Notes under the pieces: model-generated
Databases searched by the model: none
Told to the model about the DNA's origin: nothing
Seen by the model: only the letters and a program-made list of their open reading frames with translations
Shown: one piece after another, positions 38,774-49,769 of the stretch
Numbering within the stretch: the stretch's first letter is position 1
How the letters are laid out: each line of letters begins with the position of its first letter
Translations under genes and position numbers: made by a program
Source: an uncultured bacterium
Lineage (GTDB): Bacteria; Arandabacterota; Arandabacteria; JAGLYR01
Direction of reading: 5' to 3'
Length of the DNA: 64,000 nucleotides
NCBI GenBank assembly: GCA_964610505.1
Contig: CAZSXU010000014.1
Span: 4,652-68,651 of the forward strand

Positions 38774-38802
38774 TTGACAAAGCATTCCGTCGAATGTATA
38801 CT
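38774..38802 (+). promoter_or_regulatory. Near-consensus sigma-70-type promoter (TTGACA-N17-TATACT)
   Basis: TTGACA at 38774-38779, 17-nt spacer, TATACT at 38797-38802, in an AT-rich patch upstream of the metal-efflux operon. Confidence 0.5.
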
Positions 38803-38845: not shown

Positions 38846-39301
38846 ATGGAGCGTGATTCTTTGAAATCACAGCGGTTACCGGCATTCTTGATCTGGGTAT
38901 GTCTGGCGGCGTACCTCCCGGCGGCGGTTCCCGGAACGGCGGCGTCTCCCATGTTCTGCGTGAGGACGGACGGGCGCGTGGCCGTGGAGACCGGCGGGGA
39001 AAGCCACTGCAACCCGATCCCTGTTTCGGACGCCCACGCCTGCTGCTCTCACACCCAAGAGAGCGTCCAATTCCAGGATACGAGGTGCCACTGCGGTCCG
39101 TGTATCGACATCGCCGTCCCGCTCGATCAGAGCATTGTCGGAATCCCCGACGTTTCGTTCAATCCCGTGACGGTGCCTCTCGCCATTCATGCCGAGATCT
39201 TCGTTCCGGACCCCCTCTCGGGAGAGAGCGAGGTTCGCTCCGTCCCGCCTGATAGCCGGGATCCGCTCTCTTCCCTCCGCACGGTCGTTCTTCTGATCTG
39301 A
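38846..39301 (+). CDS. Hypothetical small secreted Cys/His-rich protein (possible periplasmic metal-binding protein)
   Basis: Signal-peptide-like N-terminus; cluster HCNPIPVSDAHACCSHTQESVQFQDTRCHCGPC. First ORF downstream of the promoter, upstream of the TolC/adaptor/RND genes. No SD seen, so start uncertain. Confidence 0.4.
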   Translation: MERDSLKSQRLPAFLIWVCLAAYLPAAVPGTAASPMFCVRTDGRVAVETGGESHCNPIPVSDAHACCSHTQESVQFQDTRCHCGPCIDIAVPLDQSIVGIPDVSFNPVTVPLAIHAEIFVPDPLSGESEVRSVPPDSRDPLSSLRTVVLLI

Positions 39302-39414
39302 TCCGTCGAAATCGGTTCGCCCATCCACGGACGCCGACCGAGCCACCGGTCTTCTGCCGACATGTCGGACGTGCGTCCCACCGAGTTGACACGAGCGGAT
39401 TTCGAGGGAATCTC

Positions 39415-40833
39415 ATGTCAAAGAACAACTCCATGTTTCATGTGCTCCAGATCCTTGCGATGGCTACCGGACTCGCGGCGGCCGCAGGCTGCGGGGGGGC
39501 TTCGAGTGGCCCCTGGCCCGAGGCCCGTCCTCTCGGGCGAGACCTCGACGCCTACCGGGCGCCTGCGCGTCCGACGTCGGCCTCCGACGCGCCGGCCCGG
39601 AGTTCGGGTGCCGATCCCCCTTCGACCGTCCTTTCCCTGAAAGATGCACTGGCGTTTGCGCTTGAGCGGAGTCCCGAGCTGGCGGCCTCCTCCTGGGAGG
39701 TTCGAGCCGCCGAAGCGAGAGCCGTTCAGGCGGCCTTAAGGCCGAACCCCGAAATCGAGCTGGAGGTCGAGGAATTCGGAGGCACCCACGGCCGGCGGGA
39801 CTTCGACGGGGCCGTCGTGATTCCGGCCGTCACTCAGGAGGTTGAGCTCGGCGGTAAACGCTCCAAGCGAAAGCGGGTTGCTCTCCTGGATACGCAGCTG
39901 GCCGGCTGGGACTACGAGTCCAAACGCCTCGATGTGTACACGGAGGTGAGGATGGCGTTCATTGCCGTACTCGCCGGCCAGGAACGGGTCCTCCTGGCCG
40001 AGGAACTGGTACGGCTGTCCGACGAGGTCTACTCGTCCGTTGCGGAAAGGGTGAACGCCGGGAAGGTTTCCCCGCTTGAAGAGACCAAGGCGAGCGTGAC
40101 TCTCTCCACCAGCCGCATCGAGCGGGACCATGCGAAACGCGATCTTGCCGTGGCGAGAAAGCGGCTTTCGATTACCTGGGGAAATCCATCGCCGACGTTT
40201 GAGAGGGTCGAGGGGCAGCTGGAGTCACCGGGCCAGGTTCCGCCCGTCGAGACGCTGGTCTCCCGGGTTGCCGGGAACCCCGAGGTGGCCCGCTGGACGA
40301 CGGCGATCGAGCAACGTCGTGCCGCCATCGAGATGGAGAAGGCCGGGAGGATTCCGGACCTGACCCTATCGGGCGGCGTCCAGCAGTTCAGGGAAACCGG
40401 CGATCGGGCATTCAAGGTGGGGATCTCCATTCCGTTTCCGATCTTTGATCGCAACCAGGGGGCGGTGAGGGAAACCGAGAGCGCCCTGGCCAAGGCGAAC
40501 GAAGAACGCCGGGCCGTCGAGGTACGGGTTCGCGGCCGGATTCTGGAAACACATGAATTGTTAACGGTAGCTCATTCGGAAGCCCGGAGTCTCGGCGAGG
40601 TGGTTCTTCCGGCCGCCCGCCGGGCGTTTGAGGCTGCCGAGGAGGGCTACCGGAGTGGGAAGCTGGGATACCTGGATGTCCTGGATGCCCAGCGGACCTA
40701 CTTCCAGGTGAAAGAACAGTGGGTCCAGGCGCTCTCGGCCTATCACGGGGCCGTGGCGGAAATGGAACGACTGATCGGCGGGTCCCTCCGGGAAGCGGGC
40801 GGGCTCGAACCAAACCAGGAGAATCAACGATGA
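39415..40833 (+). CDS. TolC-family outer membrane efflux protein (CzcC/CusC-like lipoprotein)
   Basis: Lipobox-like LAAAAGCGG; OEP-type coiled-coil repeats; stop overlaps the adaptor start (ATGA). Confidence 0.85.
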   Translation: MSKNNSMFHVLQILAMATGLAAAAGCGGASSGPWPEARPLGRDLDAYRAPARPTSASDAPARSSGADPPSTVLSLKDALAFALERSPELAASSWEVRAAEARAVQAALRPNPEIELEVEEFGGTHGRRDFDGAVVIPAVTQEVELGGKRSKRKRVALLDTQLAGWDYESKRLDVYTEVRMAFIAVLAGQERVLLAEELVRLSDEVYSSVAERVNAGKVSPLEETKASVTLSTSRIERDHAKRDLAVARKRLSITWGNPSPTFERVEGQLESPGQVPPVETLVSRVAGNPEVARWTTAIEQRRAAIEMEKAGRIPDLTLSGGVQQFRETGDRAFKVGISIPFPIFDRNQGAVRETESALAKANEERRAVEVRVRGRILETHELLTVAHSEARSLGEVVLPAARRAFEAAEEGYRSGKLGYLDVLDAQRTYFQVKEQWVQALSAYHGAVAEMERLIGGSLREAGGLEPNQENQR

Positions 40834-42299
40834 AACGAACGGAGACCTTGGCCCTGGCTGTGGCGGTCTTTCTTTTCGCAGTCTCGGGCGTCCTGTGGCT
40901 CACGAAGCCCGACTCGCCGGGTGTCCCCGCGGCGCACGACGGCGGGGATCATACCGGCGGCGGATTGTGCGGCCACGACCATTCCGCCGAGGCACCGGCG
41001 GACGCGAACGTGCCCGCGTGCGGCCACGACCATTCCGCCGAGGCACCGGCGGAAGACGGCGCACCCTCGTGCGATCATGACCATTCGGGGGAACACGCGC
41101 ACGGCGAAGGCGCGGCGGATCTTGAGATGTCGATCGATGAAATCATGACGACCGAATGCGAGCACGGAGTGGCCACGCATCTCTGCGATGACTGCCGGTA
41201 CGAAGTCGGTGTCGTCAAGGTGGACGAGTCGCTCATTCGAAATCACCCCACCTCCGAAGAGGGACTGATCCGCGTCATCCCGGCTTCCCGATCGGCAACG
41301 CCTTCCGTCTTGCGGGTCACGGGGGAGGTGGGACTCAATGAAAACCAGGCCGTTCGCATCAGCCCGCAGGTCCCCGGCATCATCCGATCGGTGCCCATTG
41401 ACATCGGTGCCCGGGTGAAGAGGGGGGACGTGCTCTTCGAGATCGAGAGCCGGGAGCTGGGGCGGGCCTTCAGTGAGTATGAGAGAAACCGGGCGATGGC
41501 GGATCTGGCCAGGCAGAACTTCGAGCGGGAGAAGACCCTTTTCGACAAGAAGATCTCCTCCGAGTGGGACATGATCGAGACGCAGATGGTCTATAAGGAG
41601 CACGAGACGAATCTCCAGGCGTCGGAGACGGCGCTCCGGGTTCTGGGATTTACGGACGAAGATCTACGGTCGCCGGCAGGACCGACGGGCGCGGCGCGGA
41701 CCGGGCGCCTCCCGGTTCGTTCGCCCATTGACGGCAGGGTCATCGAGAAACAAGCCGTGGTGGGAGAGCGGGTGGACGAAGGCGATGACCTGATGATGGT
41801 TGCGGATCTCGGTGCCGTCTGGGTGTGGGCCGACATCTATGAACAGGATCTGGCGACTCTCATCGAGGCCAGGCGGCACGGTCCGGTACCGGTCGAGGTA
41901 TCCGTGCACGCGTTTCCCGGGTTGGCGTTTCCGGGGGAGATCGACTACGTCGGCGCCGTGATGCAGGAACGAACCCGAACCGTGAAGGTGCGGGCGACGG
42001 TGGCCAACGGGGAAGAGCTTCTTCGCCCCGGGATGTTCTGCGAGATCCGGCTTCTCCTGGGAATCACCGATGCCGCCCTGGCCGTCCCCAAGGCCGCACT
42101 CCTCTCCGACGAGGGCGTCGATTTCATTTTCAAGCATCTGACGGGCAACTGTTTCGTCCGGAGACCGGTGGACCTAGGACGAGAGTTCGAGGGCCGGGTG
42201 GAGGTTCTCGCCGGACTCGGTGCCGGTGAGATGATCGTGACCGACGGCGCATTTCTTCTGAAATCGGATGTCCTGCGCTCGAAGATGGGCGCAGGCTGA
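40830..42299 (+). CDS. RND efflux periplasmic adaptor (CzcB/CusB-like) with His/Cys-rich N-terminal extension
   Basis: Start at ATG 40830 (MKRTETLALAVAVFLFAV). N-terminal CGHDHSAEAPA repeats, then HlyD-type adaptor domains. Confidence 0.85.
   Translation: MKRTETLALAVAVFLFAVSGVLWLTKPDSPGVPAAHDGGDHTGGGLCGHDHSAEAPADANVPACGHDHSAEAPAEDGAPSCDHDHSGEHAHGEGAADLEMSIDEIMTTECEHGVATHLCDDCRYEVGVVKVDESLIRNHPTSEEGLIRVIPASRSATPSVLRVTGEVGLNENQAVRISPQVPGIIRSVPIDIGARVKRGDVLFEIESRELGRAFSEYERNRAMADLARQNFEREKTLFDKKISSEWDMIETQMVYKEHETNLQASETALRVLGFTDEDLRSPAGPTGAARTGRLPVRSPIDGRVIEKQAVVGERVDEGDDLMMVADLGAVWVWADIYEQDLATLIEARRHGPVPVEVSVHAFPGLAFPGEIDYVGAVMQERTRTVKVRATVANGEELLRPGMFCEIRLLLGITDAALAVPKAALLSDEGVDFIFKHLTGNCFVRRPVDLGREFEGRVEVLAGLGAGEMIVTDGAFLLKSDVLRSKMGAG
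40967..41053 (+). repeat. In-frame 51-bp tandem repeat inside the adaptor gene
   Basis: GTGCGGCCACGACCATTCCGCCGAGGCACCGGCGGA occurs twice, 51 bp apart (40967 and 41018), encoding CGHDHSAEAPA twice; a third degenerate unit encodes CDHDHSGEHAHGE. Confidence 0.8.
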
Positions 42300-42341
42300 G
42301 CGGATTAGACGGCAGGCGTGCCCTGCCCTGTGGGGAGAACA

Positions 42342-45300
42342 ATGCTTGACGGCTTTATCAGACTCATACTTGCCCGGCGTTCTCTCGTGCTGATCGGAAC
42401 GGTCGTGCTCGTGATCGCTGGACTCTTCGCGTGGCGGCACCTGCCCGTCGACGCGTTCCCGGACGCCACGAACGTACAGGTGGTGATTCTCACCGAAGCG
42501 CCCGGTCTGGCGCCCGTGGATGTCGAACAACAGATTACGTTTCCCATCGAACTGGCGATGCAGGGTCTCCCGGACGTACGGGAGGTCCGCTCCCTGTCGA
42601 AATCGGCCCTCTCTCAGGTCATCGTGATCTTTGAGGACCATGTCGATACCTACTTCTCCAGACAGCTGGTGTTTGAACGTCTGGAGGCCGCCAAGGATGA
42701 TCTGCCGGATTGGGTCGAGCCCGAGATGGGGCCCATCAGTACAGGCCTGGGGGAGATCTACCAGTATACCCTGGAGAGCGACGTCCGGTCCCCGACCGAA
42801 CTCAGGACCATCCAGGACTGGCTCATCGCCCCCCAACTGCGCCCTGTGGCCGGAGTGAACGAGGTCAACAGCCTCGGCGGGTACGTAAAGCAGTACCACA
42901 TCCTGGTCGATCCCAACCGGTTGCTGAAGTACGGCGTCACGCTTCGAGATGTGGTCGAGGCGGTCGAGAACAACAACGCCAGCGCGGGCGGGAACTTCAT
43001 CGTCAAAGGATGGGAACAGGCCTACGTGCGATCCGTCGGCCTGGTCCAGACGCTGTCGGATATCGAACACATCGTTCTCAAGGCCGCGGACGGAGCGCCC
43101 GTGTTCCTGAGAGACGTGGCCGACGTGGAGGTTGGCGCGGAGACGCGGCAGGGTGCGGTCACGCGGGATGGAAAAGGGGAAACGGTGGCCGGGATGGCCA
43201 TCATGTTGAAGGGGTCAAATTCGAAAGAGGTCGTGGATCGCGTGAAGGAAGCGATCTCCAGAATCCAGGCGGGTCTGCCCGACGACGTGAGAATTTCACC
43301 CTTCTACGACCGGACGGCCCTCATCCAGGCATGCATTCATACCGTGAGCAACGCTCTCCTCCTGGGCGGGATTCTCGTCGTCCTGGTGCTTCTCCTCTTC
43401 TTGGGGAATCTCCGAGGAGCACTGGTTGTTGCGGCGTCTCTCCCGCTCACGGCGTTTATTGCCTTCATCCTCATGGGATGGAGCGGGGTGACCGCCAACC
43501 TCATGAGCCTGGGGGGGCTCGCCATCGCGATCGGCATGATCGTGGACGCGTCGATCATCGTGTCCGAGAACATCTCCCGCCACCTGGCGGAGCGGGGAAG
43601 GCGGACCTCGCCGACCGCCGAGATTGCCTTTGAGGCCGTGCGGGAAGTGGCGAGGCCCGTGATCTTCGCAATTCTGATCATTGTCATCGTGTTTGTTCCA
43701 CTGTTCACGCTGGAGCAGATGGAAGGCAAGATGTTCAAGCCCCTGGCCATGACCATGGTCTTCGCGCTGATCGGCTCACTCCTTGTGGCATTCACGGTGG
43801 TGCCGGCTCTAATGACATGGGTTCCGCGGGGGCGGAAAGGGGAGGAAGACAACCGGATCGTTCGCATGCTCAGGCGGGGATACCGGCCCGCCCTTTCCCT
43901 GGCACTGAAGCATCGATGGCCGACCGTGGTGATCGCCTTGGTCCTTCTCGTCGGGGTCATACTCCTCGTTCCCCATCTCGGCACAGAGTTTCTGCCGCAG
44001 CTCGACGAGGGGGCGATCGCGATCAACGCGACCCGCCTCCCCTCGGCTTCGCTGGACGGATCGGTTGCCGTAGGGACCTTCGTCGAGCAACGCCTCGCCG
44101 AGTTCCCGGAGGTGCAAACGGTCGTGACCAAGACCGGCCGCGCCGAGATCTCCGAAGACCCGATGGGCCCCGAGCAGAGCGACTTCGTCATCATGCTCCA
44201 TCCGAGGAACGAGTGGAAGACCGGTCGTTCCAAGGCGGATCTGGTGGCGGCGATCCAGGAGAACCTGAGCCAGATCCCCGGGCTCCGGCTCTCGTTCTCC
44301 CAGCCGATTGCCCTGCGTGTGAACGAGCTGATCTCCGGCATCAAGAGCGACCTGGCGGTCAAAGTGTTCGGGCCGGATCTGGAGGTTCTCAGGGATACGG
44401 CCAATGAAATCGCCGTCCGGATGCAGGGCGTTCGCGGAGCCGAAGACGTGAAGGTCGAGCAGATCTCCGGATTTGCACAGATTGAGGTCGATATCGATCG
44501 TCGTGAGATTGCCCGTCACAAAATCAACGTTGCGGACATCAACGAGATCATCGAGACGGCCGTCGGGGGCAGGGTGGCGACGACCATCGTAGAAGGGCAG
44601 ATGCGTTTCGCGGCGGCGGTGCGGTTCCCGGAGCCGTTTCGCCGGGACGCTGCTTCGTTGGCGCGAATTCTGGTGCCCGCGCCCGACGGGCGACGGATCC
44701 CCCTGGGGCAGCTGGCGGACATCCGGCAGGTGGAGGCGCCCGGGCAGATCAGCCGGGAGAACAACCTGCGTCGTGTGGTCGTGGAGTGCAATGTCCGCGG
44801 GCGTGACCTGGGCAGCTTCGTGGCGGAGGTTCGGGAGAAATCCCGATCCATCGTCGCGGGGATGCCGGCGGGATACTTCCTGGATTTCGGAGGTCAGTTC
44901 GAGAACCAGCAGCGCGCCATGCGGCGGTTGTCCATCGTCGTTCCCGTTTCCATTCTGCTTATCTTTCTGATGCTCTTTTCCGCCTTCGGTTCCCTCCGGT
45001 CGGCTCTTCTGGTTCTGGCCAATCTGCCGTTCGCTCTCGTTGGCGGAGTGCTGGCCATTTTCCTGTCCGGAATCAACCTCAGTGTCTCGGCCGCCATTGG
45101 CTTCATTGCCGTCTTCGGCATCGCGGTGGAGGACGGCACCGTCATGGTTTCGTTCTTCAACCGATTTCGCGACCAGGGATTGAGCCCGATGGATGCCGTA
45201 CGGAAGGGGTGCGAGGTCCGCTTCACCTCGGTTCTGATGACGACGCTCACGACTCTCCTGGGACTCATGCCCATGTTCTTTGCCCGGGGAAGCGGATCGG

Positions 45301-45428
45301 AAATTCAGCGTCCGCTGGCGGCCGTGGTGTTGGGCGGTCTGGCTTCGGCGCTCGTGCTGACGCTGCTGGTCCTGCCGGTGCTGTATTCCCTCGTGGAAGG
45401 TCGATCGGAGGCGGATGCGGAGACGTAG
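42342..45428 (+). CDS. Heavy-metal efflux RND transporter (CusA/CzcA family)
   Basis: About 1030 aa, 12 TM with two large periplasmic loops, HME-RND type; ATG 42342 with GGGGAG upstream. Confidence 0.9.
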   Translation: MLDGFIRLILARRSLVLIGTVVLVIAGLFAWRHLPVDAFPDATNVQVVILTEAPGLAPVDVEQQITFPIELAMQGLPDVREVRSLSKSALSQVIVIFEDHVDTYFSRQLVFERLEAAKDDLPDWVEPEMGPISTGLGEIYQYTLESDVRSPTELRTIQDWLIAPQLRPVAGVNEVNSLGGYVKQYHILVDPNRLLKYGVTLRDVVEAVENNNASAGGNFIVKGWEQAYVRSVGLVQTLSDIEHIVLKAADGAPVFLRDVADVEVGAETRQGAVTRDGKGETVAGMAIMLKGSNSKEVVDRVKEAISRIQAGLPDDVRISPFYDRTALIQACIHTVSNALLLGGILVVLVLLLFLGNLRGALVVAASLPLTAFIAFILMGWSGVTANLMSLGGLAIAIGMIVDASIIVSENISRHLAERGRRTSPTAEIAFEAVREVARPVIFAILIIVIVFVPLFTLEQMEGKMFKPLAMTMVFALIGSLLVAFTVVPALMTWVPRGRKGEEDNRIVRMLRRGYRPALSLALKHRWPTVVIALVLLVGVILLVPHLGTEFLPQLDEGAIAINATRLPSASLDGSVAVGTFVEQRLAEFPEVQTVVTKTGRAEISEDPMGPEQSDFVIMLHPRNEWKTGRSKADLVAAIQENLSQIPGLRLSFSQPIALRVNELISGIKSDLAVKVFGPDLEVLRDTANEIAVRMQGVRGAEDVKVEQISGFAQIEVDIDRREIARHKINVADINEIIETAVGGRVATTIVEGQMRFAAAVRFPEPFRRDAASLARILVPAPDGRRIPLGQLADIRQVEAPGQISRENNLRRVVVECNVRGRDLGSFVAEVREKSRSIVAGMPAGYFLDFGGQFENQQRAMRRLSIVVPVSILLIFLMLFSAFGSLRSALLVLANLPFALVGGVLAIFLSGINLSVSAAIGFIAVFGIAVEDGTVMVSFFNRFRDQGLSPMDAVRKGCEVRFTSVLMTTLTTLLGLMPMFFARGSGSEIQRPLAAVVLGGLASALVLTLLVLPVLYSLVEGRSEADAET

Positions 45429-45532: not shown

Positions 45533-47188
45533 ATGACGGGAGGGTTCGGAGTGAGGGGCTTCGGAAGCCGTCCCGGGGCCGGGACTTCCCGGCGCGATCG
45601 GAGACGAAGGATGATCCCTGGGAAGAGGAGAGCCGCCGACAGTTTGCGCGAGGGGGATGCGGAGAGGGGGCGGTTCGGGTTTCACGGTAAGCCGGCGGCG
45701 CTCGTTGTGTCGGTCTTTGTCGTTTCCCGAGTTCTCTTCTTCCTCGCCGGGGTCCGATTCGAGGCCACCCCCCTCAACAGCTACTGGCAGTATCTCGATC
45801 CTCAATGGCTCAGGGAGGATCTTGTCCGGAGCCTGTTCTATCTCCACAGCCAACCCCCACTGTTCAATTGTTTTCTCGGGCTGGTGTTGAAAACGTTCCC
45901 GGGTCACGAGAGCGGAGCTTTCGCCGTCAGCTACATGGCTCTCGGCCTGGTCCTGGGCATCTCTCTCTATTTGCTGATGATCCGGCTGGGCGTTTCGCGA
46001 TGGCTGGGCGCGGTGCTTTCGATCCTGTTCCTCATCAGTCCGTCATGCATTCTCTACGAGAACTGGCTTTTCTATACGTGCCCGGTCACCGTCCTCCTCT
46101 GTGTGTCGGCGCTGTTCTTTCACAGATTTCTGAGCACCCGCAGTGTGGCGAATGGCATCGTGTTTTTCACACTCCTTGCCGCCGTGGTATTGACTCGGAG
46201 CATCTTCCACCTCTTCTGGTTTCTGTTGTTCGGGGTGATTCTGGTTCTCTCGCAGCCGAGGCATTGGAAAAAAGTGGTCGTCGCGGGGTGTGTGCCGCTG
46301 GCGCTTCTCATGTTCGTCTATGCGAAGAATCTGTACCTCTTCGGGAGTTTTTCCAGCAGCACGTGGCTCGGAATGAATTTCGCCAAGATCACGACGGTTC
46401 GAGTGCCCAAGGAGCTGCGATGGGAATGGGTGAGCACGGGCACGCTTTCCAGCTTGGCCCTTCACCACCCCTTCGCCGGCCCCGGGAGTAGATCCTACCG
46501 CGGCTATTTCAGCCAACGGCCGAGAATCGGCGTCTCGGTTCTGGACGACGAGCTGAAGTCGACGGGACACGCGAACTATAACAACATCGCCTATGTCCGG
46601 ATCTCCAAGCAGTACTTCAGGGACGCGATGACCGTGTTGGCGCTCGATCCTGTCCGCTACCTCGGGGGGGTTGCCAAAGCCTGTGAGATTTACCTGAGGC
46701 CCGGAAGTCATTCGGAACTGTTGCGGGAGAATCGCAGGCGGCTGCGCGATTTCGAGAGAGCCTATCACATCGTCTTTCACGGGCAGGTTTCCGACGAGCG
46801 TGGAATCCCCCTCCAGCGTGGCAGCATTGCCGAGTACTATGTGCATGCCCGGGGAAGTGCGGGGTGGTTCACCAGCAAGGCCTGGTTCCTGATTGTGGGC
46901 TGCCCGCTACTCACGTTGTTCGGATTCGTTCTGGGGATGCGGGTGCTGAGGACGAGGGCGGACGCTCCCTTTGCGCTCACGATGCTGTTTCTGGCGGCCA
47001 ACATCGCCTACGTGACGGTGGTCTCCAACGCCGTCGAGATCGGTGAGAACAACCGGTATCGCTTCATTGTTGATCCTTATCTTCTCGTCATCGCCGGCGT
47101 GTGCCTGGAGCGCGGGCTCGGCGCGCTTCGGCGCCGCAGATCGGACATGAGCAAAGTGTGTGGAGACGAGCCGGGATACGGAGGGTAG
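45533..47188 (+). CDS. Hypothetical integral membrane protein
   Basis: Multiple TM helices, no family recognised. Alternative start ATG 45611 (MIPGKRR) has a better SD. Confidence 0.5.
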   Translation: MTGGFGVRGFGSRPGAGTSRRDRRRRMIPGKRRAADSLREGDAERGRFGFHGKPAALVVSVFVVSRVLFFLAGVRFEATPLNSYWQYLDPQWLREDLVRSLFYLHSQPPLFNCFLGLVLKTFPGHESGAFAVSYMALGLVLGISLYLLMIRLGVSRWLGAVLSILFLISPSCILYENWLFYTCPVTVLLCVSALFFHRFLSTRSVANGIVFFTLLAAVVLTRSIFHLFWFLLFGVILVLSQPRHWKKVVVAGCVPLALLMFVYAKNLYLFGSFSSSTWLGMNFAKITTVRVPKELRWEWVSTGTLSSLALHHPFAGPGSRSYRGYFSQRPRIGVSVLDDELKSTGHANYNNIAYVRISKQYFRDAMTVLALDPVRYLGGVAKACEIYLRPGSHSELLRENRRRLRDFERAYHIVFHGQVSDERGIPLQRGSIAEYYVHARGSAGWFTSKAWFLIVGCPLLTLFGFVLGMRVLRTRADAPFALTMLFLAANIAYVTVVSNAVEIGENNRYRFIVDPYLLVIAGVCLERGLGALRRRRSDMSKVCGDEPGYGG

Positions 47189-47189
47189 C

Positions 47190-48290
47190 ATGAGACGTCG
47201 GGTTTTCATCTTGTTCCCGGTGGCGCTGTGGATCGGAATCTGTTGTCGAGGTGCCGTTGTCCTCTCCGGCGGCGTCCCGGATGTCCCGACCGTACGGGGG
47301 CTGGCGGACACCGTCGGATTCGCGTACACGCCGGAGCAGATCGAAGCGGTCGTGGAGCTATCGGAGCGGGTTGAGGACGAACGGTGGAATCGCTCTCTCG
47401 AGCAGGGGCCCTGGGTGGGAGCGGTCGCGCCCCACGACGACCATCTCTACGCGGGTCCGGTCTACGTCCACGTCATGCCCGGCGTTCGGGCGAAGACCGT
47501 AGTGGTGATCGGCGTGGCCCATCGCGCGCGAACGTGGGGGGAGAAAAACCGGCTGATCTTCGACAGGTTCTCGGCGTGGCGCGGCCCGTACGGGCCGATG
47601 CCGGTCTCGAGTTTGCGAGACGATATCCTGGAAAGGATGAACCCCGACGACTATGTGGTGTCCAACGAATTTCACGCCGAGGAGCACTCCATCGAGGGGC
47701 TCCTCCCGTTCCTGCAGTACTACAACCGGGACGCAGAGATCGTGCCGGTTCTCGTTCCCTACATGGATTGGGAGAGGATGGACGAGCTGGCTTTGGATCT
47801 CGGCCTCGCGCTCGCCGAGATCTCCCGGGAGCGCGAATGGATTCCGGGATCGGACCTGGCGATCCTGATCTCGGTCGATTGCGTGCATTACGGAGACGAG
47901 GGGTGGGGGGGGAAGAACTACGCCCCCTTCGGCAGCGACGGCGGGGGATACGACCTGGCCGTGGCGAGGGAACGAGATCTGATCGAAACGCATCTGGTGG
48001 GGACCGTCCGTCCCGACAAGTTGCAGGCGCTGATGCTCCGCCTGGTAGACGAGGAAGACGTCACGCAGTATCGCATCACGTGGTGCGGGCGATTCTCGGT
48101 CCCCTTCGGACTCGATTGCCTGTATCACTATATGACCGAGATCGGACAGCCGACGCCGGCCGGAGTCTTCCTCCGGTACGGGACGAGCATCGATCTCGGG
48201 AGGCTGCCCATCGATCACTTGGGTATCGGCGTGACCGCGCCGGCGTCGCTCCACCATTGGGTCGGTTACGCGGCGGTCGGCTATCGATAG
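47190..48290 (+). CDS. MEMO1/AmmeMemoRadiSam-B-like protein with signal peptide
   Basis: VAPHDDHLYAGPVY and FHAEEHSIEGLLPFLQYY resemble Memo-family motifs; N-terminus MRRRVFILFPVALWIGICC is signal/lipoprotein-like; GGAGGG before the ATG. Confidence 0.6.
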   Translation: MRRRVFILFPVALWIGICCRGAVVLSGGVPDVPTVRGLADTVGFAYTPEQIEAVVELSERVEDERWNRSLEQGPWVGAVAPHDDHLYAGPVYVHVMPGVRAKTVVVIGVAHRARTWGEKNRLIFDRFSAWRGPYGPMPVSSLRDDILERMNPDDYVVSNEFHAEEHSIEGLLPFLQYYNRDAEIVPVLVPYMDWERMDELALDLGLALAEISREREWIPGSDLAILISVDCVHYGDEGWGGKNYAPFGSDGGGYDLAVARERDLIETHLVGTVRPDKLQALMLRLVDEEDVTQYRITWCGRFSVPFGLDCLYHYMTEIGQPTPAGVFLRYGTSIDLGRLPIDHLGIGVTAPASLHHWVGYAAVGYR

Positions 48291-48474: not shown

Positions 48475-49029
48475 CTACTCGCGCAGGAATGCGAAGATTC
48501 TGGTGAAAGCCCAGATGGTGGGGATACCGGCGAGAAGCGTTGCGGCCACGGCCATGACCAGAGGACGAGACAACACCTCCAGCGCAGAGACCTGTTCCAG
48601 CGGCACATCCGCGGCTCGGGCCAAGAATCCCATGACCGCATCCCCGATCCATGCGACGGGTGCGGCAAGTCCCTGGACCACGGGCTCCATCAAAGCGGGG
48701 AGAATGCGCGCCAGGTCCGTTCTGAACACGAGAAGGAGTGCGGAACCGACGGCAAATGCAAATACCGGAACCAAATTGGCCCAACGTTGCGCCCTCTTCT
48801 CCGCCGCGCGATCGCTGATTGCTTTCTCGGTAACCCGCCGGGCGAAATCGGCCGATAGCCCGGAGGGCAACTCCTGGACCAGAGCCTCGTGGATTTTCTT
48901 CTGCAGGAGGAGTTCGGCCCGGCACCGGCGGCAGCCCGAGAGATGGGCCTCGAGCTCCGTCATCCGGCGCTCGGGGAGTGATCCCTCCAACATTCGGGCA
49001 ATCCACTCCGTGTAGTCGAGACAGGTCAT
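48475..49029 (-). CDS. Anti-sigma factor (zinc-finger HxxxCxxC type, membrane-spanning)
   Basis: HLSGCRRC motif near the N-terminus, TM helices in the C-terminal half; start overlaps the stop of the ECF sigma gene by 4 nt. Confidence 0.6.
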   Translation of the reverse strand: MTCLDYTEWIARMLEGSLPERRMTELEAHLSGCRRCRAELLLQKKIHEALVQELPSGLSADFARRVTEKAISDRAAEKRAQRWANLVPVFAFAVGSALLLVFRTDLARILPALMEPVVQGLAAPVAWIGDAVMGFLARAADVPLEQVSALEVLSRPLVMAVAATLLAGIPTIWAFTRIFAFLRE

Positions 49030-49769
49030 CCGGTCTGCCCCCCATTGCTCACCGCATCGCCCGAGGGTCCGGCGACGAGGTCGGCAAGGTCCGTACTGGC
49101 GAGGACCAGTTCCCTCAGGCGGAGCTTGGCCCGGTGGATGTAGGTTTTGACCGTTCCCAGGGGAATCCCCATGATCTCGGCGATCTCCTCGTAGCGGGCC
49201 TGGTTGACGTAGAAGAGCGTGAGTGCCGTCCGCTGCCGCGCCGGCAGCTGCTCCACCAGGGCCTGAATGTTCTCGGACAGATCCAGCTGCTCAATTTCCT
49301 CTTCGAGGTCGGTTCGCGACGGGGGAAGCAGGCGGTGGACTTTCTCGTCGCCCTCTTCCTCCAGTGAGAGATGCTCGCCGCGCCGCCCGCGCTTTCGGAG
49401 TTCCGAGAGGCAGAGGTTGTGAGCGATCTTGTAGATCCAGGTGCTGAACTTGCTCCCGCTCCTGAAACCGGGGATCGCACGATAGACTCTGAGAAACACT
49501 TCCTGAGTCAAGTCCTCACCCTCCAGGCTCCCCACCATCCGCCTCACGAGCCAGTGAATTCGATGTTGGTACCGCGTGACGATCTCGGCGAAAGCCTCGT
49601 GGTCCTCCTCCCGGCACCGCTCGACCAGTTCCTCGTCCGTCCGTTCCGCCACGGGTCTCTTGTCGTCCACCGTCGATTCCGGGTTAAGAGGCTCATGAGT
49701 CCAGTCCGCCGGGGGCGGTGAGATTGCTCCTGTTCCATCGTAATCGGCTTCGGCAGGACCTGCAAGCAC
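49026..49769 (-). CDS. ECF-subfamily RNA polymerase sigma-70 factor; start uncertain
   Basis: Region 2 (LTQEVFLRVYRAIPGFRSGSKFSTWIYKIAHNLCLSELRK) and region 4 (TALTLFYVNQARYEEIAEIMGIPLGTVKTYIHRA). Confidence 0.85.
   Translation of the reverse strand: MLAGPAEADYDGTGAISPPPADWTHEPLNPESTVDDKRPVAERTDEELVERCREEDHEAFAEIVTRYQHRIHWLVRRMVGSLEGEDLTQEVFLRVYRAIPGFRSGSKFSTWIYKIAHNLCLSELRKRGRRGEHLSLEEEGDEKVHRLLPPSRTDLEEEIEQLDLSENIQALVEQLPARQRTALTLFYVNQARYEEIAEIMGIPLGTVKTYIHRAKLRLRELVLASTDLADLVAGPSGDAVSNGGQTG

What the first reader, a model, noticed from the sequence alone, without database searches (positions are those of the whole stretch)
38846..39301. Small secreted Cys/His-rich protein as first gene of the metal-efflux operon
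The 151-aa ORF has a signal-peptide-like N-terminus and a dense HC...H.CC.H...C.C.PC cluster, with no family I recognise. Its position is where periplasmic metallochaperones (CusF-like) or metal-sensing leaders are sometimes found, but the sequence does not resemble CusF.
Basis: inference. Interest (0 to 1): 0.45.

Follow-up and report, generated by a model that had tools for sequence, protein, structure and literature searches.

The report
Exported cysteine-rich leader gene of metal pump
The small gene is real and belongs to an undescribed protein family that sits in front of heavy-metal efflux pump genes in many bacterial phyla; it most likely acts as a secreted metal-sensing leader that unmasks the ribosome-binding site of the pump genes, rather than as a folded metal chaperone.

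Summary
Window 38846-39301 (+) encodes a 151-aa protein with a signal-peptide-like N-terminus and the stated Cys/His cluster. It lies behind a near-consensus sigma-70 promoter and in front of an OEP / CzcB-type adaptor / CusA-CzcA RND operon.

The ORF has no Pfam, NCBIfam or PDB match. A profile search nevertheless finds a family of about 145-aa proteins in at least eight phyla. In nearly every locus the gene sits directly upstream of OEP-MFP-RND.

Family signature:
- a signal peptide;
- C-x17-C, then HCGPCxD;
- an unconserved linker of nearly fixed length (CxxC to the C-terminus is 68-69 aa);
- PP(P), then LRTVVLLI-stop.

AlphaFold predicts mostly disorder. In the window, the last six codons, the stop codon and 14 nt pair with the SD, AUG and first codons of the OEP gene. 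The same topology recurs in three clades.

The best reading is a CutF-like (Ozturk et al. 2023, 2025) cis-acting exported nascent-chain metal sensor that controls pump translation. This is inferred, not shown. The family has no detectable homology to DUF2946 or CzcI, so I rate it a new variant of a known kind. The main rival is a trans-acting periplasmic modulator like CzcI, or a chaperone.

The parts
38774..38802 (+). Sigma-70-type promoter, TTGACA (38774-38779), 17-nt spacer, TATACT (38797-38802). It lies about 44 nt upstream of the ORF start.
   Evidence: 11 of 12 matches, with 0.1 sites expected in shuffles. The promoter is identical in the 85%-identity relative L001 while the flanks differ.
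38846..39301 (+). The 151-aa ORF, stop codon included. It is the first gene of the efflux operon and a member of an uncurated family of about 145-aa proteins.
38846..38944 (+). Signal-peptide-like region, residues 1 to about 33. It has K/R in the n-region, the hydrophobic core LPAFLIWVCLAAYLPAAV, then PGTAAS. The cleavage site is approximate.
   Evidence: AlphaFold helix 13-27, the most confident part of the model. Family-wide there are 2-3 K/R, a 12-aa window with mean hydropathy about 2.9, and about 10 residues to the first conserved Cys. The residue before that Cys is L/W/F, so this is not a lipobox. SignalP was not available.
38957..39010 (+). Conserved motif 1: C38-x4-G43-(H/R)44-x3-E48 ... 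C55. The family consensus is VLCxGxDGHVAxE...C, with the C-to-C spacing fixed at 17.
   Evidence: C38, G43 and C55 invariant; E48 nearly so. for the spacing. Predicted beta-hairpin 36-39/45-48.
39035..39052 (+). H64-A-C-C-S-H69: extra Cys/His found only in the window's own lineage. It is shared with P0001, P0003 and P0004 and is not family-wide.
39086..39109 (+). Conserved motif 2: C81-H-C83-G-P-C86-I-D88. The family consensus is HCGPCxD(I/V)P.
   Evidence: C83, C86 and D88 invariant; G84 and P85 nearly so.
39110..39244 (+). Linker that is unconserved in sequence but constrained in length, and predicted disordered.
   Evidence: from CxxC to the C-terminus the interquartile range is 68-69 aa (65 in the window), and from CxxC to the last PP it is 48-52 aa. 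pLDDT is below 50 for residues 95-131.
39245..39250 (+). P134-P135. In most family members this is PPP, followed by 16-17 residues.
39266..39301 (+). C-terminal motif L141-S-S-L-R-T-V-V-L-L-I151 plus the TGA stop. It is the most conserved stretch of the family.
   Evidence: T146 and L149 invariant; R145, V147, V148 and L150 at 90% or more. Thr uses all four codons, and the Leu codons are 91% CUN.
39283..39315 (+). 5' arm of the long-range RNA helix: the last six codons, the stop codon and 14 nt downstream.
   Evidence: MFE -60.8 kcal/mol, z = -2.73. The helix is conserved in L001, L091 and L092, with 5 compensatory pairs.
39396..39430 (+). 3' arm of the helix. It contains the Shine-Dalgarno GAGGG (39404-39408), the ATG (39415-39417) and the first five codons of the OEP gene.
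39415..40833 (+). Outer-membrane efflux protein (CzcC/TolC-like) with a lipoprotein-like N-terminus.
   Evidence: PF02321, E = 6e-51..
40830..42299 (+). CzcB-type periplasmic adaptor. Its start overlaps the OEP stop by 4 nt, and its N-terminus is rich in His and Cys.
42342..45428 (+). CusA/CzcA-family heavy-metal RND permease. The longest ORF starts at 42318. The closest solved relatives are ZneA, then CusA.

Best explanation
The ORF encodes a Sec-exported, largely unstructured, cysteine-rich leader protein. It acts in cis as a periplasmic metal sensor for the pump operon, in the manner of CutF.

Proposed sequence of events:
1. Transcription starts at a strong, apparently unregulated promoter.
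2. In the mRNA, the Shine-Dalgarno sequence, AUG and first codons of the OEP gene are locked in a long-range helix with the last codons, the stop codon and the proximal 3' flank of the small ORF. The pump genes can therefore only be translated when a ribosome occupies the end of the small ORF.
3. While that ribosome decodes the C-terminal PP...LRTVVLLI-stop segment, the four-cysteine module (C38, C55, C83xxC86) lies 48-69 residues back. That places it just outside SecYEG in the periplasm.
4. Metal binding to those thiols, or the resulting failure to form disulfides, is proposed to alter the pulling force on the nascent chain. This would lengthen the pause at the ORF end and keep the OEP ribosome-binding site open.
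5. OEP translation is passed on to the adaptor gene through its ATGA overlap.

Shown here by computation: a real conserved gene, the family architecture, linkage to OEP-MFP-RND, the length ruler, predicted disorder, and the helix with its recurrence in other clades.

Inferred only: export, metal binding, pausing, and the direction of regulation.
For: (1) Conserved module.
- 78 representative proteins at E<=1e-3, 224 clusters and 154 loci among GTDB species representatives.
- In three distant annotated loci the gene lies directly upstream of OEP / CzcB-type MFP / ACR_tran, with unrelated flanking genes.
- tblastn finds OEP-MFP-RND downstream on the same strand in nearly all of about 85 loci. 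The gap is always at least 42 nt and never overlapping, unlike the OEP/MFP junction.

(2) Architecture parallel to CutF. CutF has a Sec signal peptide, Cys5, Cys12, C41xxxC45 and a C-terminal PPP (preprint 10.1101/2025.02.05.636593; PMC9973294). This family has a signal peptide, C-x17-C, CxxC, and PP(P) 48-52 aa after the CxxC.

(3) Length ruler. The distance from CxxC to the C-terminus has an interquartile range of 68-69 aa, although the linker sequence is unconserved. The C2-C3 linker varies more, 24-27 with a range of 18-34.

(4) Disorder. AlphaFold with 120 sequences gives confidence only for the N-terminal helix and one hairpin; residues 95-131 are disordered.

(5) RNA helix in the window.
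- 39283-39315 pairs with 39396-39430, which holds the SD and AUG.
- MFE is -60.8 kcal/mol, z = -2.73, and 4 of 200 shuffles fold as well.
- RNAalifold on the four loci of this lineage returns the same helix: 88% of cells paired against 32-56% when slid, and 5 compensatory pairs reached by 1 of 500 shuffles.

(6) The same topology in other clades.
- 11 Planctomycetota loci: 93% of cells paired against 27-50% when slid.
- 12 Poribacteria loci: this is the only consensus pairing found.
- Across 74 loci, 34% of the pairing probability of the OEP translation-initiation region goes to the 51-nt ORF-end window. This falls to 14% when that window is shuffled (Wilcoxon p = 5e-7).

(7) Codon usage. The terminal Leu codons are 91% CUN against 69% elsewhere in the ORF, which suggests an anti-SD constraint on the RNA. 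Thr146 uses all four codons evenly, which indicates selection on the peptide.

(8) Regulators. A crude tblastn screen (single queries, E<1e-8) of about 85 loci (up to 6-10 kb of flank each side) found 1 response-regulator, 0 histidine-kinase, 4 MerR and 1 ArsR hits.
Against: - There is no experiment of any kind. Export, metal binding and pausing are all inferred.
- The helix is not universal. Only 32 of 74 loci put 40% or more of the initiation region's pairing on the ORF end. The Desulfuromonas and Methylomonas loci score low.
- The simple duplex shuffle test is only marginal for the window itself (p = 0.06).
- Covariation support rests on 4 sequences in the window's lineage and is absent in the Planctomycetota alignment.
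- The loci are not phylogenetically independent, so the pooled p-values are optimistic.
- The PP motif lies 48 nt or more before the stop codon. A stall at PP, as in CutF, would not reach the helix, so a pause would have to occur at the terminal LRTVVLLI-stop. No arrest peptide known to me resembles that sequence.
- A plain helix of this kind could give ordinary translational coupling with no sensing.
- The conserved hydrophobic C-terminus could equally be a docking motif of a mature protein.
- H44, nearly invariant in the family, is Arg in the window's protein.
Confidence: 0.5

Rival explanations
1. The mature protein works in trans in the periplasm. It would be either a CzcI-like modulator that damps or gates the pump, or a metal-binding chaperone or adaptor that hands ions to the adaptor or RND. 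The four Cys (plus His, Glu, Asp) would form the metal site. The flexible fixed-length linker and the hydrophobic free C-terminus (VVLLI-COOH) would dock onto a pump subunit. The RNA helix would then only ensure stoichiometric co-translation.
For: - CzcI occupies the same position upstream of czcC. It is reported to be a periplasmic protein that quenches CzcCBA activity for Zn and Co (PMC10127602).
- Strict co-occurrence with OEP-MFP-RND also fits a fourth pump component.
- An invariant extreme C-terminus with a free carboxylate is typical of docking motifs (general knowledge).
- The adaptor here carries its own His/Cys-rich N-terminal extension that could exchange metal with it.
Against: - There is no folded domain: mean pLDDT is 57 and about 40% of the chain is disordered.
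- There is no similarity to CusF, CzcI or any solved structure.
- This reading does not explain why the ORF end specifically pairs with the OEP ribosome-binding site in three clades.
- It does not explain the CUN bias of the terminal Leu codons.
- It does not explain why the gene is never translationally overlapped with the OEP gene, unlike the other junctions.
Confidence: 0.3
2. The N-terminal hydrophobic segment is an uncleaved signal anchor. The protein would then be a small inner-membrane-tethered accessory subunit or sensor, comparable in concept to small RND partners such as AcrZ. Alternatively it regulates transcription termination (a CruR-like, Rho-dependent mechanism) rather than translation initiation.
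For: - The h-region is long and very hydrophobic: mean Kyte-Doolittle hydropathy is about 2.9 over 12 aa, and the window has an 18-aa core.
- The helix 13-27 is the most confident part of the model.
- CruR, a CutF-like uORF, is reported to act through Rho-dependent termination with a 162-nt intergenic region (PMC9973294). The gap here is 113 nt, and 42-610 nt across the family.
Against: - Many members have canonical small-x-small sites right before the first conserved Cys, for example VHA|A, SNA|A and AFG|A.
- No intrinsic terminator lies in the gap.
- The conserved parts of the gap are the two helix arms, not a C-rich unstructured tract.
Confidence: 0.12
3. The ORF is a chance open frame in GC-rich DNA. 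The region would be only a long 5' leader of the pump operon.
For: High-GC windows carry many long spurious ORFs (one search lists dozens). There is no obvious Shine-Dalgarno sequence before the ATG at 38846.
Against: - Protein-level conservation across at least eight phyla, with invariant Cys and a conserved C-terminus.
- Codon-position GC pattern like real genes.
- Thr146 is kept through all four synonymous codons.
Confidence: 0.01

Closest known systems
CutF of Rhodobacter capsulatus and the 'CutF-like' / DUF2946 proteins (Ozturk et al., mBio 2023, PMC9973294; bioRxiv 10.1101/2025.02.05.636593)
   Same: - A small exported protein encoded as the first gene upstream of a metal-homeostasis gene on the same strand.
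- A Sec signal peptide.
- Four cysteines arranged as two single Cys plus a CxxC/CxxxC motif.
- A proline motif in the C-terminal part.
- An mRNA structure that hides the Shine-Dalgarno sequence of the next gene.
- OEP genes of RND systems are the commonest downstream neighbours of CutF-like genes.
   Different: - No DUF2946 Pfam hit in any of 79 members.
- CxxC (HCGPC) instead of CxxxC.
- PP lies 16-18 residues from the end, not within the last 15. It is followed by a second, non-proline invariant motif, LRTVVLLI-stop.
- The masking helix is long-range (about 80-600 nt apart) and uses the ORF's own last codons as one arm.
- The family is found mainly outside Pseudomonadota: Poribacteria, Planctomycetota, Verrucomicrobiota, Hydrogenedentota, Desulfuromonas and others.
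- The partner is an RND pump rather than a multicopper oxidase.
- No experimental data exist.
CzcI / CzcI2 of Cupriavidus metallidurans (first gene of czcICBA)
   Same: - The same position: a small signal-peptide protein directly upstream of the czcC-type OEP gene. The gap is 75 nt in pMOL30 and 113 nt here.
- A Cys right after the signal peptide and a later C-G-x-C motif.
- A conserved extreme C-terminus.
   Different: - Profile-profile comparison gives 5.4% probability, with only 15 columns aligned around CGxC.
- CzcI has a His-rich HxGHHxH block, no PP motif and a different C-terminal motif (PDRPQW).
- CzcI is reported to act as a mature periplasmic protein that quenches pump activity (PMC10127602).
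CruR of Bordetella pertussis and CopL of Xanthomonas (CutF-like upstream ORFs)
   Same: They are cis-acting small upstream ORFs with Cys motifs that make expression of a downstream metal gene copper-dependent. CruR has a long (162 nt) intergenic region.
   Different: - CruR is reported to be signal-sequence independent and to act through Rho-dependent termination on a TonB-dependent transporter.
- CopL precedes a copper oxidase.
- Neither was compared directly; no DUF2946 Pfam hit was found in 79 members.
Secretion-monitoring arrest peptides SecM, MifM and VemP
   Same: They are exported leader proteins with a conserved C-terminal segment of about 17-20 aa. A ribosome paused at the ORF end melts a stem that hides the Shine-Dalgarno sequence of the downstream gene (as summarised in PMC9973294).
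   Different: They monitor Sec/YidC activity, not metals, and lack cysteine motifs. They have no sequence resemblance. Arrest by LRTVVLLI is purely hypothetical.
CusF periplasmic metallochaperone
   Same: It is a small periplasmic protein encoded within a heavy-metal RND operon.
   Different: CusF is a folded five-stranded beta-barrel (PF11604) with a Met/His/Trp site. Here there is no Pfam hit and no predicted globular fold.

Membership tests
DUF2946 (PF11162), the Pfam family of CutF | Significant match to the Pfam HMM | tested here: not met
   The window protein has no family at E<=1. None of 79 family members hits PF11162 at E<=0.1. For comparison, CzcI gives a weak hit (E = 0.026, 15.7 bits against a cut-off of 23.7).
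CutF-like proteins, rule-based definition of Ozturk et al. 2023 | Length of 150 aa or less | tested here: not met
   The window protein is 151 aa. The family median is 147 aa, so most relatives pass.
CutF-like proteins, rule-based definition of Ozturk et al. 2023 | N-terminal Sec (SPase I) signal peptide | tested here: met
   This is a heuristic test only; SignalP was not available. There are 2-3 K/R, a 12-aa hydrophobic window with mean hydropathy about 2.9, and about 10 residues to the first Cys. Small-x-small sites occur in many members, and there is no lipobox. AlphaFold gives helix 13-27.
CutF-like proteins, rule-based definition of Ozturk et al. 2023 | PP motif within 15 residues of the C-terminus | tested here: not met
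   In the window, P134-P135 are followed by 16 residues. In the family, the last PP is followed by 16-17 residues in most members.
CutF-like proteins, rule-based definition of Ozturk et al. 2023 | [quoted passage not shown] | tested here: met
   Four invariant or near-invariant Cys: C38, C55 and C83xxC86. The motif is CxxC rather than CxxxC. Metal binding itself cannot be tested here.
CutF-like proteins, rule-based definition of Ozturk et al. 2023 | [quoted passage not shown] | tested here: met
   The gap to the OEP gene is 113 nt. Across the related loci it is 42-610 nt.
CutF mechanism (functional class) | mRNA stem that sequesters the Shine-Dalgarno sequence of the downstream gene | tested here: met
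   Prediction only. The helix is 39283-39315 with 39396-39430. It is conserved with compensatory changes in the lineage and has the same topology in two other clades. It is not universal: 32 of 74 loci show it.
CutF mechanism (functional class) | Acts only in cis; metal-dependent ribosome stalling during co-translational export | not testable with these tools
   This needs genetics, pulse-labelling, toeprinting or ribosome profiling.
CzcI family | Sequence or profile homology to CzcI (YCxHE...HxGHHxH...DCGxCH...PDRPQW) | tested here: not met
   hhalign of the 120-sequence family alignment against 44 CzcI relatives gives probability 5.4%, with 15 aligned columns.
CzcI family | Small signal-peptide protein encoded directly upstream of the czcC-type OEP gene | tested here: met
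.
CusF (PF11604) metallochaperone | CusF Pfam match and beta-barrel fold | tested here: not met
   No Pfam hit. No PDB sequence hit with the family profile. AlphaFold gives one hairpin and otherwise disorder.

The most novel reading that the evidence does not exclude
This is an evolutionarily independent (convergent) family of trans-membrane nascent-chain metal sensors, widespread outside the Proteobacteria.

In this reading, a new non-proline termination/arrest motif (LRTVVLLI-stop) and a fixed 65-69-residue ruler couple thiol-metal chemistry at the periplasmic mouth of SecYEG to the opening of a long-range anti-Shine-Dalgarno helix. The ORF's own last codons encode one arm of that helix. These RND metal pumps would then be regulated with no transcription factor at all.
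Probability: 0.3. Interest if true: 0.75.

Novelty: new variant of a known kind. Interest (0 to 1): 0.55.

Why it matters
Heavy-metal RND pumps are usually described as controlled by two-component systems or by MerR/ArsR regulators. A crude homology screen found almost none of those regulators next to these operons. The operons instead carry this conserved leader gene.

If the cis-sensor model holds:
- The recently discovered CutF principle, in which extracytoplasmic metal is sensed by a nascent exported chain, would extend to a sequence-unrelated family. That family occurs in Poribacteria, Planctomycetota, Verrucomicrobiota, Hydrogenedentota, Desulfuromonas, methanotrophs and others.
- It would supply a second type of pause motif and a measurable ruler, which would help test how force across SecYEG is read by the ribosome.

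On the practical side:
- The family has no Pfam or NCBIfam model, and automatic gene callers often truncate it, as in the 116-aa call for this locus. A family model would improve annotation of metal-resistance loci in metagenomes.
- Cultured carriers exist for experiments: Desulfuromonas soudanensis (DSOUD_2902), Desulfuromonas sp. AOP6 and Methylomonas methanica.

Tried and rejected
- AlphaFold with the 3-sequence alignment gave pLDDT 36 and was unusable. With 120 sequences it was still mostly low confidence, so no fold search was run; the matches would have been meaningless.
- The word-indexed homology search with the single protein found only 3 relatives. The first genome scan found nothing, and the metagenome scan returned only the window's own contigs.
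A 7-sequence subset worked.
- Rfam found no family anywhere in the window.
- Searching the PDB by sequence with the family profile gave nothing at E<=10.
- I first thought the gap of about 110 nt to the OEP gene was conserved in length (109-113 nt in four loci). That idea is rejected: across the related loci the gap ranges from 42 to 610 nt.
- RNAduplex with shuffled arms is noisy, because it allows large loops and GC-rich shuffles also bind well. It gave 17 of 74 loci at p<=0.05, and p = 0.06 for the window. I replaced it with partition-function partner analysis.
- A preference in stop-codon identity, which might hint at a release-factor-specific pause, was not found: TGA 35, TAA 31, TAG 19.
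- A lipoprotein reading is rejected because the residue before the first Cys is L/W/F.
- A thioredoxin-like reading of CGPC is rejected: there is no Pfam hit and no predicted fold.
- The protein list of the CutF paper (its File S1) is not held in the library. I could not check whether any member of this family was already in their list D.
Full report
**1. Observation.**
The ORF at 38846-39301 (+) exists as described: ATG start, 151 aa, TGA stop. Its product begins MERDSLKSQRLPAFLIWVCLAAYLPAAVPGTAAS.

- A near-consensus sigma-70 promoter (TTGACA-17-TATACT, 38774-38802) lies 44 nt upstream. The scan expects 0.1 such sites in shuffles.
- Downstream on the same strand lie three genes:
  - an outer-membrane efflux protein (39415-40833, PF02321);
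  - a CzcB/HlyD_D23 adaptor (40830-42299, overlapping the OEP stop by 4 nt);
  - a CusA/CzcA RND permease (to 45428; TIGR00914 at 1179.7 bits against a cut-off of 701).
- The closest solved relatives of the permease are ZneA (745 bits) and CusA (660 bits).

So the 'first gene of a metal-efflux operon' is confirmed.

**2. It is a real gene and defines a family.**
The protein has no Pfam or NCBIfam hit at E<=1. The word-indexed search finds only three relatives:
- an 85%-identical protein;
- the same protein called from M36;
- a 43%-identical protein in a fully syntenic locus (glycosyltransferase, YkuD, Mur ligase, ORF, OEP, MFP, RND).

A profile of these three was scored against 1.84 billion representative proteins. 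It finds 78 proteins at E<=1e-3, almost all 130-170 aa and aligned end to end. A second profile search finds 224 clusters, all unnamed or 'hypothetical' and with no Pfam domain.

A scan of GTDB species representatives gives 154 loci. They come from Poribacteria, Planctomycetota, Verrucomicrobiota, Hydrogenedentota, Desulfuromonas and other 'Deltaproteobacteria', methanotrophic Gammaproteobacteria (Methylomonas, Methylobacter, Crenothrix), Acidobacteriota, Latescibacterota and Sumerlaeia.

Coding signals agree:
- GC at codon positions 1/2/3 is 0.63/0.50/0.75, like the neighbouring genes.
- Differences from the 85% relative peak at third positions.

None of 79 members hits any relevant Pfam family. 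The family profile hits nothing in the PDB.

**3. Family anatomy.**
The alignments give this consensus: a basic and hydrophobic N-terminus; V-L-C-x-G-x-D-G-H-V-A-x-E ... C; a variable Ser-rich stretch; H-C-G-P-C-x-D-(I/V)-P; a long variable stretch; P-P-P; then x-x-S-x-x-L-x-x-L-R-T-V-V-L-L-I at the very C-terminus.

- Invariant positions are C38, G43, C55, C83, C86, D88, T146 and L149.
- Positions at 90% or more are G40, H44, E48, G84, P85, R145, V147, V148 and L150. H44 is Arg in the window.
- The HACCSH block and the extra C81 are specific to the window's lineage.

Spacings:

| Interval | Spacing (aa) |
|---|---|
| C1 to C2 | 17, fixed |
| C2 to CxxC | 24-27 (range 18-34) |
| CxxC to last PP | 48-52 |
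| After PP | 16-17 |
| CxxC to C-terminus | 68-69 interquartile (65 in the window) |

The last of these holds even though that linker has no sequence conservation.

The N-terminus behaves as a Sec signal peptide:
- It has 2-3 K/R and a 12-residue window of mean hydropathy about 2.9.
- About 10 residues separate that window from the first Cys.
- Many members have small-x-small sites immediately before the conserved V-L-C.
- The residue before that Cys is L/W/F, so it is not a lipobox.

AlphaFold2 with 120 sequences is confident only for helix 13-27 and a hairpin at 36-39/45-48. Residues 95-131 are predicted disordered, and mean pLDDT is 57.

**4. Genomic linkage.**
In Desulfuromonas sp. AOP6, D. 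soudanensis (DSOUD_2902) and a 208-kb metagenomic contig, the gene lies directly upstream of OEP, a CzcB-type adaptor and ACR_tran. The surrounding genes are unrelated between these loci.

tblastn with the window's pump proteins shows OEP-MFP-RND, or a subset of it, downstream on the same strand in nearly all of about 85 non-redundant loci that have enough sequence. The gap to the OEP gene is 42-610 nt. It is never an overlap or a short junction, unlike the OEP/adaptor junction.

A crude tblastn screen found 1 response-regulator, 0 histidine-kinase, 4 MerR and 1 ArsR hits in the 6-10 kb of flank held for each locus.

**5. An RNA helix links the ORF end to the next gene's ribosome-binding site.**
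*The window's lineage.* Folding 39272-39435 gives one dominant structure (MFE -60.8 kcal/mol, z = -2.73, 4 of 200 shuffles as good). In it, 39283-39315 (the last six codons, the TGA and 14 nt) pair with 39396-39430 (GAGGG at 39404-39408, ATG at 39415, and five codons of the OEP gene).

RNAalifold on the window plus its three closest relatives returns the same helix, although the roughly 85-nt loop between the arms is unalignable (L001; L091 and L092, fetched). On that alignment 88% of cells pair, against 32-56% when the partner is slid. Five pairs show compensatory change, a value reached by 1 of 500 shuffles. With four sequences this is suggestive, not proof.

*Other clades.*
- In 11 Planctomycetota loci, the codons for L-R-T-V-I-L-L pair with UAGGAUUACUGUxAUG, which is the SD and AUG of the OEP gene. 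There 93% of cells pair against 27-50% when slid, but there is no significant covariation.
- In 12 Poribacteria loci, the only consensus pairing in a 310-column alignment is CU(C/G)CUCAU (codons L-L-I) with GUGAGGAG (the SD).

*All loci.* Over 74 loci, 34% of the pairing probability of the OEP initiation region goes to the 51-nt window around the ORF stop. Another 18% goes to the 120 nt upstream and 7% to the rest of the gap. Shuffling the ORF-end window lowers the 34% to 14% (Wilcoxon p = 5e-7, 50 of 69 loci). The loci are not independent, so this is optimistic.

The helix is not universal. 32 of 74 loci reach 40% or more, and the Desulfuromonas and Methylomonas loci score low.

*Codon usage fits a dual constraint*:
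- Leu codons in the last six positions are 91% CUN against 69% elsewhere in the ORF.
- Thr146 uses all four codons about equally.
- The peptide motif is the same whether its codons pair with the SD (Planctomycetota, Poribacteria) or with the first OEP codons (the window).

The peptide itself is therefore also under selection.

**6. Comparison with what is known.**
A literature search for CzcI led to Ozturk et al. 2023 (PMC9973294) and their 2025 preprint (10.1101/2025.02.05.636593).

*CutF.* CutF of Rhodobacter capsulatus is a small Sec/SRP-exported protein with two single Cys, a CxxxC motif and a C-terminal PPP. According to those authors, periplasmic Cu prolongs ribosome stalling on the nascent chain. 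[quoted passage not shown] The mature protein is undetectable, and the gene works only in cis. Their rule-based 'CutF-like' set most often has an OEP gene of an RND system as its downstream neighbour.

The present family matches that architecture point by point. It nevertheless fails the sequence tests and two of the filters:
- There is no DUF2946 hit in 79 members.
- PP lies 16-18 residues from the end rather than within 15.
- The window protein is 151 aa.

I could not check their protein list, because it is not held in the library.

*CzcI.* CzcI of pMOL30 occupies the same position and has a weak DUF2946 hit. Profile-profile comparison with 44 CzcI relatives gives only 5.4% probability. CzcI is reported to act as a mature periplasmic protein that quenches CzcCBA (PMC10127602). 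That report is the basis of the main rival explanation.

**7. Mechanism and its weak points.**
The best-supported model is a cis-acting exported leader. Only a ribosome at the end of the small ORF opens the OEP ribosome-binding site. At that moment the four-Cys module is 48-69 residues behind the peptidyl-transferase centre. From general knowledge, the ribosome tunnel plus SecYEG hold roughly 50-70 residues, so the module would sit at the periplasmic exit of the translocon. Its metal or redox state could then modulate dwell time.

Weak points:
- A stall at PP would leave the ribosome's leading edge about 18 nt or more short of the helix in the window. The pause therefore has to be at the terminal motif, which resembles no arrest peptide known to me.
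- The direction of regulation is assumed from CutF and from the logic of an efflux pump.
- The helix alone would also fit ordinary translational coupling.
- The conserved hydrophobic C-terminus would also fit a docking motif of a mature, CzcI-like or chaperone-like protein.

I therefore give the cis-sensor model 0.5, the trans-acting periplasmic protein 0.3, an anchored subunit or Rho-type attenuation 0.12, and a chance ORF 0.01.

**8. Verdict.**
The finding is real and its descriptive interpretation is right. The ORF is not an orphan. It represents an uncurated, phylogenetically broad family that is tightly linked to heavy-metal RND operons.

In kind it belongs with the recently described CutF-like exported leader/sensor proteins. 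It is a distinct variant in four respects: no detectable homology, a different Cys motif and C-terminal motif, a long-range anti-SD helix, and a different taxonomic range. Novelty: new variant of a known kind. Interest: 0.55.

Noticed in passing
window 40967-41086 (within the adaptor gene 40830-42299): The N-terminus of the CzcB-type adaptor carries 2.4 tandem copies of a 51-nt unit that encodes a His-rich repeat (CGHDHSAEAPA...). A C-x9-C-x2-C cluster (CEHGVATHLCDDC) follows. This looks like a likely metal-binding extension of the adaptor, next to the Cys-rich leader protein.
   Followed up: partly
window 38951-39301; public proteins P0002: Public gene calls for this exact locus start the ORF at Met36 (116 aa), which removes the signal peptide. 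The family alignment and relatives P0001 and P0004 support the 151-aa form. Automatic annotation probably truncates or misses members of this family often.
   Followed up: yes
window 48475-49029 (-) and 49026-49769 (-): An anti-sigma factor (zf-HC2) and an ECF sigma factor lie on the opposite strand, about 3 kb downstream of the RND gene. They are not conserved next to the module in the three distant annotated loci, so they are probably unrelated to its control.
   Followed up: partly
window 45611-47188 (+) and 47190-48290 (+): A 525-aa protein with no Pfam hit on record, hydrophobic by eye in its translation, and a Memo-family protein follow the RND gene on the same strand. Whether they belong to the operon was not examined.
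   Followed up: no
L093:2340-2696 (Xanthomonas citri plasmid pXAC219, NZ_CP075326.1): A 118-aa 'hypothetical protein' lies directly upstream of a TolC/adaptor/CusA-CzcA operon. It has a hydrophobic N-terminus, a His-rich stretch, a CC pair and a C-terminal PFRPPIAG. It has no Pfam hit. It is another uncurated CutF-like leader candidate, unrelated in sequence to the family studied here.
   Followed up: partly
L094:15177-15524 (czcI, pMOL30) and alignment A8: The CzcI family also has a nearly invariant extreme C-terminus (P-D-R-P-Q-W-x-x-L-A) and only a 75-nt gap to czcC. Some relatives carry a newer Pfam accession, PF28244, in the precomputed annotations, which did not appear in the hmmscan output for CzcI.
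   Followed up: no
Alignment A7 columns 65-89 and 119-167 (Planctomycetota loci, e.g. L053:573-773): Two further conserved hairpins lie inside the loop between the ORF end and the OEP ribosome-binding site. The second has two compensatory pairs. Together with the long-range helix they would form a three-way junction. Their role is unknown.
   Followed up: no
window 38774-38802 and L001 upstream region: The promoter block TTGACAAAGCATTCCGTCGAATGTATACT is identical in the 85%-identity relative L001, while the sequence on both sides has diverged. No operator-like inverted repeat was noticed by eye in it.
   Followed up: partly
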